Part shown: positions 18,547 through 21,326 of the stretch, piece after piece
How positions within the stretch are numbered: position 1 is the first letter of the stretch
How the letters are laid out: the number at the start of each line of letters is the position of its first letter
Assembly (NCBI GenBank): GCA_014691105.1
Contig: GCA_014691105.1_4891.1
Source of the DNA: a phage
Length of the DNA stretch: 52,976 nucleotides
Reading direction: 5' to 3' (one strand)
The notes under the pieces: model-generated
Seen by the model: only the letters and a program-made list of their open reading frames with translations
What the model was told of the DNA's origin: nothing
Database searches by the model: none
Program-made: the position numbers and the translations under genes

Positions 18547-19185
18547 ATGGCAAATCGTACTACAGCCAACCGTCCTGTTAAAGACGCAGACCTGCGTCAA
18601 GAGTCGGTTACTCAGTTCCCGTTAGCCAAGCCGACCAAGCTTGATGAGAACGGAAAATTCATTCCAACCCCAGTTACCGGTGTAACTGTTACCCCTAAAG
18701 CTAAGTCAATTGCTGTTGGTGAGTTTACAACTCTGTCAGCAGCAGTAGCCCCGGTAGACGCGGACGACGTTACTGTATTGTGGGAAAGCAATGCGCCTGA
18801 CAAAGCCACTGTTGATGGTTCAGGTCGTGTTCAGGGTATTAAAGTTGGTTCAGCAACTATTACTGCTAAATCCAAGCTTGACCCTTCCAAAACCGATACT
18901 GTAGCAATTACGGTAACTGCTCCGCCTGTAGCCGTCACTGGTGTTACGTTAGCGCCTAAGTCTCCAAGTGTTGTAGTAGGCTCTACTGTACAGCTGACTG
19001 CAACTGTACTGCCTGCTGGCGCTACTAACAAAGCTGTTACCTACGAATCAAACGACCTGGCTAAAGCTACCGTTAGTGCAACTGGTCTGGTTACCGGTAA
19101 AGCAGCTGGTGTCGTCACCATCACTGTCAAAACAGCTGACGGCAGCTTCACTGACACCGCGTCAGTAACTGTTACTGCTGAGTAA
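18547..19185 (+). CDS. Big_2 (bacterial Ig-like) domain protein
   Basis: Two repeats of the pattern VTGVTLAPKSPSVVVGSTVQLTATVLPAGATNKAVTYESNDLAKATVSATGLVTGKAAGVVTITVKTADG. Confidence 0.7.
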   Translation: MANRTTANRPVKDADLRQESVTQFPLAKPTKLDENGKFIPTPVTGVTVTPKAKSIAVGEFTTLSAAVAPVDADDVTVLWESNAPDKATVDGSGRVQGIKVGSATITAKSKLDPSKTDTVAITVTAPPVAVTGVTLAPKSPSVVVGSTVQLTATVLPAGATNKAVTYESNDLAKATVSATGLVTGKAAGVVTITVKTADGSFTDTASVTVTAE

Positions 19186-19193
19186 GGAGCTGA

Positions 19194-21326
19194 TTGATGT
19201 CGCTTCCACTTAATGAGGTTGTCGACGTCCAGTTCAGTAAGAGCAACGGGGGTAAAGGTTTTACCCCCAATGTTCCGCTGGAAGGTATAATGCTTTCCAA
19301 CTACGAGTACTCAATCGTCGCGGGTGATGACCCTGTTCAGCTAGTTGTGCGTTACATTCCAACCAACGCTACTGAGCGTGGTATGGCATGGAAATCTAGC
19401 GACCCGGACGTTATCACTGTTGATGAGCTCGGATTTGTGAAGCCACTGGCGGAAGGTGTTGCATACGTGACTGGTACGTCTGTTGACGGCGGTTATACAG
19501 TACGGGCAAAGTTTAACATTGCTCGGGCACCTATCCTTGTTGAATCTGTTACAGTGTCTCCCACAAGTGTGACACTTGAAGAGGGCAAGACTCAACGCCT
19601 GACATACACCTATTTACCTGCTAACGCAGATAATCCTGATTTCTACTGGATTTCAGATGATGAGTCTGTTGCTGTCGTTAGCGACAACGGGCTTGTCACT
19701 GCCATTGGAGATGGCGAAACAACTGTAAACGTACAGTACGGTGTTGACAGCTCTATATTCGATAGCTGTACAGTAACTGTTATTCCTCCTGTTGTGCACG
19801 TTACAGGAGTCGAGTTTCTTACTCAGTCACCTCTTAACGTTAATATCGGAAGCACAGCTGGTACTAGTATTCGTATATCGCCAGAAGATGCCACTGACAA
19901 AACAGTGACATACGAAAGCAATGCACCTACTATAGCAACTGTGGACACTGACGGAAATGTTACTGGTATTGTAGCTGGTAATGCCACTGTTACTGTTAAG
20001 ACGAATGACGGTGATAAGACTGACACTCTTGACATTATAGTCAGGGTGCCTGCTGTAAATGTTACCGGTGTAAGTATTGACGAAGGCGATACAGCTTCCA
20101 TGGAAGTTGGTGACACTCTTCAGCTACATGCCACTGTGACTCCTGAAAATGCTACTGACCCATCTGTTGTATGGAGTGCTCCTGTATCAGAAGTTGCGTC
20201 TGTTACTGAAGCTGGTTTGGTAACCGCTAACGCTGCAGGCTTAATTGATGTTACTGTTATCACTAATGACGGGAACTTTACAGATAGAATCGAGGTTAAA
20301 GTTACAGACCCTAGCATCGCAGTTACGGATGTTGCATGGGCTCCTGACTCTCCGACTAAAGTAAGCGCTGGCCATCAGGTGCAGACTAAAATTGTTATAA
20401 CACCTGACAACGCAACCAATAAAAAAGTCAGTTACAATAGCTCAAATCCTGACGCTGTTACTGTTGACACTAACGGAGTTATATACGGTCAATCTCCTGG
20501 AACTTCGACTATTACAGTTACAACAGACGACGGTGGACTTGAGGCTTCATTTGTAGCTACTTGCACGGAGGTGGCTGTTATTACACCAGATGGTCTTGGT
20601 GGTATCCCAATTGGTGGTACTCAGCAGCTCACTTATACTGTTAGTCCGTCTGACGCTGAGCTGACTAATATTCGTTATGAGTCTGCTGACCCAGCTATTG
20701 CAACTGTTGATTCGTCTGGCGTTGTAACTGGTGTTGCTAGCGGCGGATGTAACATCTGGATTTACGCAACTAGCAATGGCGCTGACATTAGTGCAGCTAC
20801 TTGGGCACAAATTTCTGAGAAGGTACAGGTCTACCCTCAGTATGCCGAATGGCTTGTGGGTAACACCAAACAGCTTGATGTTAAGATTTATCCGTCTGAC
20901 TCTAAGAGCGTTACCGTTACTTATGAATCGTCAGATGACACTATCATTAGTGTAGATGCAAATGGCTTGATGACTGCTAAGTCTGAAGGTTCAGCAACTA
21001 TTACTGCTAACGTTGTGATGAACGGTGTTGCTGCTTCTGGTACAACATCGCCTTACGTGTCTGAGCTTTCTGTTACTACTGACTCGTTGCCTGCACTCAC
21101 TGTTGGTAACACGCAACAGCTGGTTGTAACTGTTAGACCTGAATACGCTAAGACAGACCCAGGCTATAACGTTCAGTATACAACTACAGACGATACTGTC
21201 GCTGCTGTAAGTAATACTGGTGTTATTACTGGCGTTGGTAACGGTGGATGTCGTATTGGTGCCACAGTAGCTGTGAGAAATGCTACAGCGTCGGACAGCT
21301 CTTATCAGTCCGTCGATGCAGCATAA
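19194..21326 (+). CDS. multi-Big_2 Ig-like domain protein (710 aa)
   Basis: About seven tandem repeats of V.V.P....L..G.T.QL.A.V.P..A....V.W.S.D..VATVD..G.VT.V..G.ATIT. Confidence 0.7.
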   Translation: MMSLPLNEVVDVQFSKSNGGKGFTPNVPLEGIMLSNYEYSIVAGDDPVQLVVRYIPTNATERGMAWKSSDPDVITVDELGFVKPLAEGVAYVTGTSVDGGYTVRAKFNIARAPILVESVTVSPTSVTLEEGKTQRLTYTYLPANADNPDFYWISDDESVAVVSDNGLVTAIGDGETTVNVQYGVDSSIFDSCTVTVIPPVVHVTGVEFLTQSPLNVNIGSTAGTSIRISPEDATDKTVTYESNAPTIATVDTDGNVTGIVAGNATVTVKTNDGDKTDTLDIIVRVPAVNVTGVSIDEGDTASMEVGDTLQLHATVTPENATDPSVVWSAPVSEVASVTEAGLVTANAAGLIDVTVITNDGNFTDRIEVKVTDPSIAVTDVAWAPDSPTKVSAGHQVQTKIVITPDNATNKKVSYNSSNPDAVTVDTNGVIYGQSPGTSTITVTTDDGGLEASFVATCTEVAVITPDGLGGIPIGGTQQLTYTVSPSDAELTNIRYESADPAIATVDSSGVVTGVASGGCNIWIYATSNGADISAATWAQISEKVQVYPQYAEWLVGNTKQLDVKIYPSDSKSVTVTYESSDDTIISVDANGLMTAKSEGSATITANVVMNGVAASGTTSPYVSELSVTTDSLPALTVGNTQQLVVTVRPEYAKTDPGYNVQYTTTDDTVAAVSNTGVITGVGNGGCRIGATVAVRNATASDSSYQSVDAA

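What the first reader, a model, noticed from the sequence alone, without database searches (positions are those of the whole stretch)
18547..21326. Two consecutive proteins built from tandem bacterial Ig-like (Big_2) domains
A 212-aa protein with about two Big_2 repeats is followed by a 710-aa protein with about seven. Such Ig-like arrays on phage surfaces mediate weak adherence to carbohydrates or mucus, and the repeats are a substrate for recombination-driven length variation.
Basis: partly seen in the sequence, partly recalled or inferred. Interest (0 to 1): 0.45.

Follow-up and report, generated by a model that had tools for sequence, protein, structure and literature searches.

The report
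Ig-like phage appendages with sheath-arm anchor
Two neighbouring genes of a known Salmonella/E. coli phage type encode strings of two and eight antibody-like domains, ordinary phage surface decorations, except that the larger protein starts with a copy of the short peptide that tail-sheath subunits use to lock onto each other, which suggests how it is fastened to the tail.

Summary
ORF1 (18547-19185, 212 aa) has two Big_2 domains. ORF2 (most likely ATG 19197 to 21326, 709 aa) has eight, not about seven. The window is a near-complete Rosemountvirus genome (99.3% to Escherichia phage CF2), and both genes are already annotated in dozens of relatives, so the basic finding is ordinary.

Length variation by recombination is directly supported. 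Relatives carry 7 or 8 domains in ORF2 and 1 or 2 in ORF1. Phage birk lost exactly one unit through a D3/D4 crossover at a short shared motif. The proximal and distal halves of ORF2 have different nearest relatives.

New here: both proteins are built as a short conserved N-terminal peptide, a linker and an Ig array. ORF2's first 13-16 residues (MSLPLNEVVDVQF) match, reciprocally and specifically, the N-terminal "handshake" arm of DUF3383 sheath proteins. I propose that this arm docks ORF2 into a sheath-type beta-sheet site, most plausibly on the neck-proximal sheath ring, giving six flexible Ig-like whiskers. ORF1 is probably an abundant virion decoration, attachment site unknown.

Adhesion to glycans or mucus is untested. 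The docking site is inferred, and a C-terminal extension of the tail terminator may already occupy it.

The parts
18486..18514 (+). Promoter-like site TTTACT-N17-TATAAT ahead of ORF1. It is one of five copies of this motif in the window.
   Evidence: 5 matches, all on the + strand, against 0.03 expected by chance. BP63 annotates a promoter at the same place.
18500..18524 (.). Inverted repeat (12-nt arms) centred on the -10 hexamer of that promoter.
   Evidence: A similar inverted repeat occurs at the same place in the distant relative L091.
18547..19185 (+). ORF1, 212 aa: N-terminal peptide, linker and two Big_2 domains.
   Evidence: The orthologue S144 gp18 is a virion protein by MS.
18547..18669 (+). 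ORF1 N-terminal peptide (aa 1-41). The conserved core is MA[NR]xTT...ADLRQE. It is the presumed anchor; its partner is unknown.
   Evidence: Conserved from the window to Erwinia phage SOI901 and a metagenomic lineage. Only an orthologue was found among 1.84 billion representatives.
18670..18921 (+). ORF1 Big_2 domain 1 (aa 42-125).
18931..19179 (+). ORF1 Big_2 domain 2 (aa 129-211).
19197..21326 (+). ORF2, 709 aa from ATG 19197 (ORF listing gives TTG 19194): sheath-like N-arm, Gly-rich linker and eight Big_2 domains.
19197..19244 (+). ORF2 N-arm (aa 1-16, MSLPLNEVVDVQFSKS), matching the N-terminal handshake arm of DUF3383 sheath proteins.
   Evidence: reciprocal profile matches, in register at residue 1. 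It is the most conserved region of the family and has pLDDT below 50 in the monomer model.
19245..19274 (+). Gly-rich linker (aa 17-26, NGGKGFTPNV). G18, G19 and G21 are invariant in the family.
19275..19526 (+). ORF2 Big_2 D1 (aa 27-110).
19536..19787 (+). ORF2 Big_2 D2 (aa 114-197).
19797..20048 (+). ORF2 Big_2 D3 (aa 201-284).
20058..20309 (+). ORF2 Big_2 D4 (aa 288-371).
19988..20011 (+). D3 copy of the short shared motif (TGTTACTGTTA..AC.AATGACGG) at which the one-unit deletion in phage birk occurred.
20249..20272 (+). D4 copy of the same motif, the partner in the birk crossover.
20319..20570 (+). ORF2 Big_2 D5 (aa 375-458). The distal cassette D5-D8 starts here; it is 92-99% identical to the fHy-Eco03-type proteins.
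20562..20813 (+). ORF2 Big_2 D6 (aa 456-539).
20811..21059 (+). ORF2 Big_2 D7 (aa 539-621), the most variable domain in the family.
21054..21320 (+). ORF2 Big_2 D8 (aa 620-708), a conserved tip domain with a conserved C-terminal tail. D7-D8 are related to phi92 gp152.
21352..21380 (+). A second promoter-like site of the same type, ahead of the sheath gene.
21413..22552 (+). Tail sheath (DUF3383/PF11863, 379 aa). Its N-arm (aa 1-22, 21413-21478) is the element that ORF2 copies.
14372..14899 (+). Tail terminator (175 aa). Its C-terminal strand YIYKVDITC is the expected sheath C-arm mimic and is followed by an 11-15 residue extension.

Best explanation
ORF1 and ORF2 are accessory virion proteins of a Rosemountvirus-type myophage. 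Each is a flexible string of bacterial Ig-like (Big_2) domains tethered to the particle by a short N-terminal peptide rather than by a globular binding domain.

Shown:
- The domain composition: 2 and 8 Big_2 domains.
- The N-terminal 13-16 residues of ORF2 belong to the same sequence family as the N-terminal arm of DUF3383 sheath proteins. In the solved relatives Pam3, XM1 and E217 this arm is the beta-strand that, together with a neighbour's C-terminal strand, augments a beta-hairpin of the ring below (the 'handshake').
- This arm is the best-conserved part of the ORF2 family, is disordered in the monomer model, and is followed by a Gly-rich linker.
- The Ig arrays are reshuffled between phages and change in unit number by in-register recombination.

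Inferred:
- ORF2 is fixed to the tail by inserting its arm into a sheath-type handshake site. The only such sites not already satisfied by sheath subunits are the six hairpins of the neck-proximal ring. There the tail terminator supplies the C-arm, and in Pam3, XM1 and E217 the sheet has three strands instead of four.
- This would give six whiskers roughly 25-30 nm long at the neck-tail junction.
- ORF1 has its own conserved peptide, sits first behind a late promoter of the type that also precedes the scaffold/capsid and sheath genes, and its orthologue gave near-saturating MS coverage. It is probably a high-copy decoration of capsid or sheath.
- Both most likely provide weak, multivalent binding to polysaccharide on host cells or in the environment, as proposed for other phage Ig-like domains.

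My own estimates: Ig-like surface appendages, about 0.85. ORF2 N-arm is a functional beta-strand anchor, about 0.55. Docking specifically on the top sheath ring, about 0.3.
For: Domains:
- Pfam Big_2 at 118 and 309.5 bits, own HMM 2 + 8 domains, AF2 with eight beta-sandwich units at pLDDT 85, and Foldseek hits only to multi-Ig arrays.

Arm homology:
- An HMM of 70 sheath N-termini, searched against all 289 ORFs of the window plus orthologues, scores the sheath at 52 bits. ORF2 and its four orthologues score 13-15 bits (E 2e-4 to 9e-4), all aligned from residue 1. The next ORF scores 3.7 bits.
- The same HMM against 5689 ORFs of 80 DUF3383 phage loci hits only the 80 sheaths and one ORF2 orthologue.
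- All 17 family members in a 5.8-billion-protein search carry the arm. None of about 100 other Big_2 arrays does.
- Reciprocally, an HMM of ORF2-family N-termini finds sheath N-termini and nothing else, up to 19.9 bits and E 7e-5, in register.
- A negative control with the ORF1 peptide and the terminator N-terminus finds nothing.

Conservation:
- The arm has the highest majority-residue fraction (0.79, against 0.46-0.76 for the domains).
- Arm residues 1-16 are 100% identical between the window and the SE4/S144-type proteins, while D1 is about 45-48%.
- V9, V11 and Q12 are conserved in both families.

Structure context:
- Residues 1-22 have pLDDT below 50 in both the sheath and the ORF2 models.
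- E217 defines its sheath N-arm as residues 1-23.
- The handshake and the three-stranded top-ring sheet are described for Pam3, XM1 and E217.

ORF1:
- MS of S144 gp18.
- The promoter family.
- In lineages B and C a GC-rich UUCG hairpin followed by a T-rich tract separates ORF1 from ORF2, which would favour more ORF1 than ORF2.

Recombination.
Against: - No structure or complex model places either protein.
- The ORF2 orthologue was not among the proteins detected in S144 virions.
- The terminator of this clade continues 11-15 residues beyond its C-arm-like strand. It could fold back as a hairpin and fill the N-arm slot itself, as phi92 gp129 does. Long-form terminators also occur in phages that lack ORF2.
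- The match is short. The pairwise score against the phage's own sheath is barely above noise (36 against 34; shuffle p = 0.005). ORF2's arm resembles the family consensus more than the sheath of its own clade.
- The ORF1 anchor has no detectable relative outside its own family. KE25 carries a different N-terminus on its ORF1.
- Glycan or mucus binding is pure analogy.
Confidence: 0.5

Rival explanations
1. Both proteins are Hoc-like capsid decorations. They sit on capsomers of the prolate head, and the N-terminal peptides bind the capsid surface. The resemblance of ORF2's N-terminus to the sheath arm is irrelevant to attachment.
For: PHROG's best family for ORF1 is 'structural protein with Ig domain', filed under head and packaging. 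The S144 orthologue of ORF1 gave the highest MS coverage, as expected of a high-copy protein. Hoc and the Bas63 Hex-Dec protein are Ig arrays with variable repeat number. A solved Hoc-like protein (7x30) is among the PDB sequence hits.
Against: Neither protein has a globular capsid-binding domain. Only 41 and 26 residues precede the first Ig domain. The genes lie between the tail terminator and the sheath, not in the head module. The ORF2 arm match is specific and reciprocal to sheaths.
Confidence: 0.2
2. ORF2 is part of the baseplate or side-fibre apparatus. It could be the roughly 25-nm 'short rigid fibres' that fold up along the tail in S144 micrographs. It would contribute to host recognition rather than being a neck whisker.
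For: S144 TEM shows 25.4 nm fibres usually lying against the tail, and seven Ig domains would span about that length. D7-D8 are 44-46% identical to phi92 gp152 and to the N-terminus of a 719-aa tail esterase, both encoded among tail-spike genes. The distal cassette D5-D8 has been exchanged recently between divergent phages, as receptor-binding modules are.
Against: The S144 authors assign the fibres to a Mu gpS-like protein with two chaperones encoded after the baseplate genes. All handshake acceptor sites at the baseplate end are occupied by the first sheath ring in solved relatives. Single-chain Ig strings are flexible, not rigid.
Confidence: 0.15
3. The sheath-like N-terminus of ORF2 is an evolutionary leftover of a partial sheath-gene duplication or recombination and has no docking role. 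ORF2 would be attached by other means, or only loosely.
For: ORF2 lies immediately upstream of the sheath gene. The similarity covers only 13-16 residues. The ORF2 orthologue was not detected in S144 virions.
Against: A leftover would decay, yet the arm is the most conserved segment of the family and is identical in phages whose first Ig domain has diverged to 45-48%. The similarity stops exactly where the sheath's globular domain begins and is followed by an invariant Gly-rich linker. The DNA of the two 5' ends is not alike.
Confidence: 0.1
4. ORF2 is the 'major tail protein' (tail tube), as RefSeq and PHROG label its orthologues.
For: phrog_28902 matches full-length at 1590 bits and is labelled major tail protein. 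BP63 gp31 and SE13 gp33 carry that product name.
Against: The protein consists only of the arm and eight Big_2 domains, with no tube fold. A separate tube gene follows the sheath (22564-22995; KPP10_Orf10/E217_Gp32 family). The label most likely spread from siphophage tube proteins that carry a C-terminal Ig domain.
Confidence: 0.02

Closest known systems
T4 Hoc and the Hoc-like Hex-Dec protein of Felixounavirus Bas63
   Same: They are virion-surface strings of Ig-like domains. Repeat number varies between related phages (1-4 in Felixounavirus), and the anchor is more conserved than the array. The presumed role is weak adhesion.
   Different: Hoc and Hex-Dec anchor through a globular capsid-binding domain and sit on capsid hexamers. 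ORF1 and ORF2 have only a short N-terminal peptide and are encoded in the tail module. ORF2's peptide belongs to the sheath-arm family.
Tail terminator C-terminal arm and sheath initiator (gp25-like) in Pam3, XM1, E217, Milano and R-type pyocin
   Same: A non-sheath protein copies one element of the sheath handshake (the C-terminal strand, or the acceptor hairpin) so as to join the sheath mesh by beta-sheet augmentation. The proposed ORF2 mechanism uses the same principle with the remaining element, the N-arm.
   Different: Those are core assembly proteins present in all contractile systems. ORF2 would be an accessory fibre confined to one clade, and I found no described case of N-arm mimicry by an accessory protein in the papers read.
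Neck or collar fibres: T4 Wac, XM1 collar spike gp40, A-1(L) bead-chain neck fibres, Bas63 whiskers
   Same: The proposed position at the head-tail junction, and a presumed accessory role in sensing or adhesion. A-1(L) and Bas63 fibres look like beads on a string.
   Different: Those fibres are trimeric coiled coils or multi-protein bead chains attached to neck proteins through folded domains. ORF2 is a single all-beta chain with no coiled coil and would attach to the sheath.
Lambda gpV C-terminal Big_2 domain and phi92 gp152
   Same: Big_2 domains displayed on the outside of a phage tail. phi92 gp152 (202 aa, annotated 'lambda protein V like fold') is 44% identical to ORF2 D7-D8.
   Different: In gpV the Ig domain is fused to the tube protein itself. 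Here the tube and sheath lack Ig domains and the arrays are separate gene products.

Membership tests
Big_2 (PF02368) bacterial Ig-like domain proteins | Significant match to the Big_2 profile above Pfam's gathering score. | tested here: met
   ORF1 118 bits (2 stretches) and ORF2 309.5 bits (8 stretches), against a cut-off of 22.8.
Big_2 (PF02368) bacterial Ig-like domain proteins | Beta-sandwich fold of about 80-90 residues per unit. | tested here: met
   The AF2 model of ORF2 has pLDDT 85.1 and eight all-beta units of about 84 residues. Foldseek's best hits are multi-Ig arrays. ORF1 was not modelled.
Hoc-like capsid decoration proteins | Present in the mature virion. | tested here: inconclusive
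   From the literature only: the ORF1 orthologue S144 gp18 was detected with 80% coverage, and the ORF2 orthologue gp19 was not listed. gp19 is poorly suited to tryptic MS.
Hoc-like capsid decoration proteins | A globular capsid-binding domain next to the Ig array. | tested here: not met
   Only 41 (ORF1) and 26 (ORF2) residues lie outside the Ig domains. There is no Pfam or PHROG match to them, and the ORF2 segment has pLDDT below 50.
Hoc-like capsid decoration proteins | Binding to capsid hexamers; dispensable for infection. | not testable with these tools
   Needs cryo-EM and genetics.
DUF3383 / PF11863 contractile tail sheath proteins | N-terminal arm of the handshake. | tested here: met
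   Reciprocal, in-register profile matches between the ORF2 family and sheath N-termini.
DUF3383 / PF11863 contractile tail sheath proteins | Globular sheath domains and the C-terminal arm. | tested here: not met
   ORF2 gives no DUF3383 match, and everything after residue 26 is Big_2. ORF2 is therefore not a sheath protein; it shares only the arm.
Neck whisker / collar fibre proteins (Wac, XM1 gp40 type) | Trimeric coiled-coil shaft. | tested here: not met
   The ORF2 model contains a single 5-residue helix and is otherwise beta.
Neck whisker / collar fibre proteins (Wac, XM1 gp40 type) | Attachment at the neck-tail junction. | not testable with these tools
   Inferred only from the arm homology and from the three-stranded top-ring sheet in Pam3, XM1 and E217.
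Major tail (tube) proteins, as the orthologues are labelled | Tail-tube fold forming the hexameric tube. | tested here: not met
   ORF2 has no tube domain. The tube gene is 22564-22995.

The most novel reading that the evidence does not exclude
ORF2's N-terminal arm pairs with the terminator's C-terminal strand on each of the six acceptor hairpins of the last sheath ring, rebuilding a complete four-stranded handshake. An accessory Ig-like fibre would then be plugged into the contractile sheath mesh by mimicking a sheath subunit's arm. As far as I could find, this mode of attachment has not been described. Because the top-ring sheet is retained on contraction in E217, ORF2 would probably stay attached during contraction. 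The arm would be a 16-residue tag for displaying foreign domains on myophage tails.
Probability: 0.3. Interest if true: 0.6.

Novelty: new variant of a known kind. Interest (0 to 1): 0.4.

Why it matters
Ig-like domains are common on tailed phages, and these two genes are already annotated in many Rosemountvirus and Loughboroughvirus genomes, so their existence changes nothing. Three points have some value.

1. ORF2 carries a short, specific copy of the sheath handshake arm. This gives a concrete hypothesis for how an accessory fibre is fixed to a contractile tail, and a cryo-EM map could test it. It is also a candidate minimal tag for displaying cargo on myophage tails used in biocontrol.

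2. This locus records clear domain-boundary recombination. There is an exact one-unit deletion with a hybrid domain, and a distal four-domain cassette is shared at 92-99% identity between phages whose proximal halves are only 37-49% identical. This is useful for understanding how such arrays evolve and for judging host-range-related variation in therapeutic Salmonella and E. coli phages.

3. The widespread product name 'major tail protein' for the ORF2 orthologues is almost certainly wrong.

Tried and rejected
- Frameshift fusion. ORF2 is in the -1 frame relative to ORF1, but a TGA at 19191-19193 in the ORF2 frame lies after the ORF1 stop (19183-19185), so no fusion product is possible.
- Recent DNA-level tandem repeats as a slippage substrate. 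TRF finds no array and the longest exact shared stretch is 23 nt. Length change occurs at short motifs or between phages instead.
- ORF1's N-peptide as a mimic of the terminator N-terminal loop. It looked plausible by eye, but profile searches give 1.7 bits, which is noise.
- ORF1's N-peptide elsewhere. Smith-Waterman against all window ORFs gives only noise. Pfam finds nothing. A search of 1.84 billion representatives returns one orthologue and two repeat-protein artefacts.
- Pfam DUF3383 against the ORF2 arm alone gives no hit because the peptide is too short. BLASTP of the two N-terminal regions finds nothing.
- A protein search with ORF2 residues 1-112 returned only one 95-aa fragment and was wasted.
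- PDB sequence searches for the 985-aa and 207-aa upstream proteins and for the terminator as a single sequence gave no hits.
- Covariation of ORF2 residue 10 (D or N) with a terminator residue (K or E) follows the lineages, but there are only two or three of them. It is not counted as evidence.
- Other N-arm-bearing accessory proteins in 80 more distant DUF3383 phage loci: none found.
- Literature on Rosemountvirus, including the SD286 gp38 paper, contains nothing on these two proteins.
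Full report
**What is there.** The second more probably starts at ATG 19197. That codon has AAGGAG eight bases upstream and is the start annotated for the BP63 orthologue, giving 709 aa.

Pfam Big_2 matches ORF1 at 118 bits in two stretches and ORF2 at 309.5 bits in eight stretches, against a cut-off of 22.8. A profile built from the window's own repeats delimits two domains in ORF1 (aa 42-125 and 129-211). It delimits eight in ORF2: 27-110, 114-197, 201-284, 288-371, 375-458, 456-539, 539-621 and 620-708. An AlphaFold2 model of ORF2, built on a 17-sequence family alignment, has mean pLDDT 85.1. It is all-beta with eight sandwich units and a low pTM of 0.39, as expected of beads on a string. 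Foldseek returns only generic multi-Ig arrays.

**Which phage this is.** The region 14000-23500 is 99.3% identical to Escherichia phage CF2 and about 98% identical to Salmonella phage BP63, the type of the genus Rosemountvirus. Forty-four phage records cover it almost completely. The window is essentially a whole genome of that type.

The gene order is:
- Neck1
- a small 'head protein'
- tail terminator (PF23961)
- a 207-aa protein labelled tail fibre, with an Ala/Glu-rich N-terminal segment
- a 985-aa 'tail protein'
- ORF1
- ORF2
- sheath (DUF3383/PF11863)
- tube
- tail assembly chaperone
- tape measure.

The orthologues are annotated variously as 'structural protein with Ig domain', 'Ig-like domain-containing protein' and 'major tail protein'. 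The last label cannot be right. ORF2 has no tube domain, and a separate tube gene follows the sheath.

**Virion association.** The only experimental data I found are for the sister genus. In purified Loughboroughvirus S144, gp18 was detected by ESI-MS/MS with 17 peptides and 80% coverage, the highest in the table. gp18 is 72% identical to ORF1 (PMC7432712). gp19, the ORF2 orthologue, is absent from that table. I do not read much into this. S144 gp19 has only 19% of its sequence in tryptic peptides of 7-30 residues, against 71% for gp18.

**Expression signals.** ORF1 lies first behind a promoter-like site, TTTACT-N17-TATAAT (18486-18514). The same motif occurs five times in the window, always on the + strand, against 0.03 expected by chance. 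The other copies precede the terminase genes, the scaffold and capsid genes, the sheath gene, and one further + strand region near 49.7 kb.

In three more distant lineages of the family, a GGGGCTTCGGCCCC hairpin followed by a T-rich tract lies between ORF1 and ORF2. In the window the gap is only 11 nt with no hairpin. Together these features fit an abundant ORF1 and a rarer ORF2. That is an inference.

**Repeat variation and recombination.** At DNA level the repeats are old. There is no tandem array, the longest exact shared stretch is 23 nt, and domains within ORF2 are 22-37% identical to each other. Nevertheless the unit number differs among relatives.
- ORF2 has eight domains in the window, BP63 and several metagenomic members. 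It has seven in birk, SE13, SE4, S144, AEV23, KE25 and Erwinia phage SOI901.
- ORF1 has two domains everywhere except in one metagenomic lineage, where it is 125 aa with a single domain.

Phage birk shows the mechanism. Its protein is 93-99% identical to the window's across D1, D2 and D5-D8, but 87 residues are missing. Its third domain is a hybrid, D3 up to GNATVTVK and D4 from TNDGNFTD. The junction falls inside a 24-nt stretch in which D3 and D4 share TGTTACTGTTA..AC.AATGACGG (window 19988-20011 and 20249-20272). This is an in-register unequal crossover at a short conserved motif.

ORF2 is also a mosaic.
- SE13 shares D1-D4 with the window (80-90% identical), but its next domains are unrelated (about 32-36%).
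- The fHy-Eco03-type proteins share D5-D8 at 92-99% identity, while their arm-to-D4 part is only 37-56% identical.

The substrate is short motifs and inter-phage exchange at domain boundaries, rather than long intragenic DNA repeats.

**The anchoring peptides.** Both proteins have the same plan: a short conserved N-terminal peptide, a Gly- or Pro-rich linker, and then the Ig array. For ORF1 the conserved core is MA[NR]xTT...ADLRQE. I found no relative of it anywhere. The window's ORFs, Pfam and 1.84 billion representative proteins all gave nothing beyond one orthologue and two repeat-protein artefacts. KE25 carries an unrelated N-terminus on its ORF1.

For ORF2 the peptide is MSLPLNEVVDVQFS. 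The sheath encoded next door begins MPLNVNQIVNVQLN, and the consensus of DUF3383 sheaths is MSLPLSQIVNVQLN.

**Testing the ORF2-sheath match.**
- A profile of 70 non-redundant sheath N-termini was searched against every ORF of at least 50 aa in the window plus four orthologues. It gives the sheath 52 bits. ORF2 and its orthologues get 13-15 bits (E 2e-4 to 9e-4), all aligned from residue 1. The next ORF gets 3.7 bits.
- Against 5689 ORFs from 80 other DUF3383 phage loci, the same profile finds the 80 sheaths and a single further protein, which is an ORF2 orthologue.
- All 17 members of the ORF2 family recovered from 5.8 billion proteins carry the arm, at 9-19 bits. None of about 100 other Big_2-array proteins does.
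- In the reverse direction, a profile of the family's first 22 residues finds sheath N-termini and nothing else, up to 19.9 bits and E 7e-5, again in register.
- The same procedure applied to the ORF1 peptide and to terminator N-termini finds nothing, which serves as a negative control.

The arm is the most conserved part of the ORF2 family (majority-residue fraction 0.79). It is identical between the window and the SE4/S144-type proteins, whose first Ig domain is only about 45-48% identical. The similarity ends exactly where the sheath's globular domain begins, and in ORF2 a linker with three invariant glycines follows. In both AlphaFold models residues 1-22 have pLDDT below 50. E217's sheath N-arm is defined as residues 1-23.

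**What the arm does in solved relatives.** The window's sheath is related to those of Vibrio phage XM1 (E 2e-29) and cyanophage Pam3. Pfam now names the family after the E217 sheath.

[quoted passage not shown] At the baseplate the sheath initiator provides the hairpin. At the neck the terminator provides a single C-terminal strand, so the last ring carries a three-stranded sheet (PMC9942802, PMC10457771, PMC10329688). The only handshake position not filled by a sheath subunit is therefore the N-arm position on the six hairpins of the top ring.

My proposal is that ORF2's arm fills that position, next to the terminator strand (YIYKVDITC in the window). This would give six flexible Ig-like whiskers at the neck-tail junction. 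It uses the principle already known for terminators and sheath initiators, applied here to an accessory protein.

**Weaknesses of that proposal.**
- Nothing here places the protein.
- The terminator of this clade runs 11-15 residues past its C-arm-like strand: MDDNGNKATGTVEEP in the window and RNDKMKDDIRTIVVTTE in a distant lineage. XM1's terminator ends right after that strand. In phi92 the terminator supplies a C-terminal hairpin and completes a four-stranded sheet by itself. The same could happen here, leaving no free slot, or only an edge to extend. Long-form terminators also occur in phages without ORF2.
- ORF2's arm is closer to the family consensus than to the sheath of its own clade.
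- The arm-plus-Ig protein is confined to the Rosemountvirus, Loughboroughvirus and SOI901 clade.

I put about 0.55 on the arm being a functional beta-strand anchor, and about 0.3 on the top sheath ring as the site.

**Function.** Nothing here tests binding. By analogy with Hoc, Hex-Dec and other phage Ig-like domains (and established knowledge of those families), the likely role is weak, multivalent adhesion to polysaccharide on cells or in the environment. The family shows a conserved tip domain D8, a hypervariable D7 and a recently exchanged distal cassette. This is what one would expect if the distal end contacts a variable ligand.

D7-D8 are also 44-46% identical to phi92 gp152, a 202-aa protein annotated as having a 'lambda protein V like fold', and to the N-terminus of a 719-aa tail esterase. 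Both are encoded among tail-spike genes.

**Rival explanations.**
- Hoc-like capsid decoration is the main rival, especially for ORF1. Its abundance fits, but neither protein has a capsid-binding domain and the genes sit in the tail module.
- A baseplate or side-fibre role for ORF2 is possible. S144 shows 25-nm fibres folded against the tail. However, the S144 authors assign those to a Mu-like fibre, and no free handshake site exists at the baseplate end.
- The arm could be a relic of a partial sheath duplication. Its conservation argues against that.
- The tube-protein label is rejected.

**Verdict.** The comparative evidence for domain loss and cassette exchange is clean. The sheath-arm copy at the N-terminus of ORF2 appears not to have been described, and it gives a specific, testable attachment model.

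Noticed in passing
window 7739-7767, 11112-11140, 18486-18514, 21352-21380, 49704-49733: Five copies of TTTACT-N16-18-TATAAT, all on the + strand (0.03 expected by chance), lie ahead of structural gene blocks and look like a phage-specific late promoter family. Two of them sit inside inverted repeats (18500-18524 centred on the -10 hexamer; 21347-21353 with 21378-21384 bracketing -35 to -10). A similar repeat is conserved in the distant relative L091 (6495-6561).
   Followed up: partly
L003 6642-6693; L085 3444-3483; L005 about 5700-5746; L091 6936-7001: In the more distant lineages a GGGGCTTCGGCCCC (UUCG-loop) hairpin followed by a T-rich tract lies between the ORF1 and ORF2 orthologues. It looks like a terminator or attenuator. 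It is absent from the window and its close relatives, where the gap is 11-14 nt.
   Followed up: partly
window 14899-15522 and 15522-18479: A 207-aa protein with an Ala/Glu-rich N-terminal segment and a 985-aa 'tail protein' (the S144 record cites phi92 gp141) are encoded directly after the tail terminator. Neither has a Pfam or PDB sequence match. By position they could be the counterpart of the XM1 collar spike gp40, but this was not tested.
   Followed up: partly
window 14372-14899; alignment A3: Tail terminators of DUF3383-type phages come in a short form that ends right after the C-arm-like strand (as in XM1 gp5) and a long form with 11-18 extra residues that could make a second strand. 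The window has the long form.
   Followed up: partly
window 20319-21326 compared with P0124/P0125 (Escherichia phage vB_EcoM_fHy-Eco03 type): Domains D5-D8 are 92-99% identical to a protein whose arm-to-D4 part is only 37-56% identical. This indicates a recent exchange of the distal four-domain cassette with a breakpoint at the D4/D5 boundary.
   Followed up: yes
L091 6559-6936; L085 2764-3444; L086 4501-5232: The ORF1 orthologues vary: one metagenomic lineage has a 125-aa form with a single Big_2 domain. KE25 has a 226-aa form with an unrelated N-terminus. In AEV23 the ORF1 orthologue is annotated as 209 aa and is followed by a 101-nt gap that still reads like Big_2-coding sequence, which suggests a truncated or frameshifted 3' end (not translated).
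   Followed up: partly
Public records PP583539.1 and P0121: A record named 'Listeria phage 220426122051' (host Listeria monocytogenes) is 97.6% identical to this enterobacterial phage over 9.5 kb. A 95-aa fragment that shares at least 18 residues at 100% identity with ORF2, and by eye continues to match it (ORF2 residues from about 95), is deposited as a Vibrio vulnificus protein on a 286-nt contig. Both look like mislabelling or contamination.
   Followed up: no
RefSeq BP63 gp31, SE13 gp33, SE4 gp49, birk gp66; phrog_28902: The ORF2 orthologues carry the product name 'major tail protein', although they contain only Ig-like domains and the phage has a separate tube gene. This is probably an annotation error spread through PHROG labels.
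   Followed up: yes
L089 2914-3522 (phi92 gp152); L090 2914-5073 (phage ALITA): A two-domain Big_2 module 44-46% identical to ORF2 D7-D8 occurs as a free 202-aa protein in phi92. It also forms the N-terminus of a 719-aa 'tail carbohydrate esterase' in a related phage, next to the tail-spike genes.
   Followed up: partly
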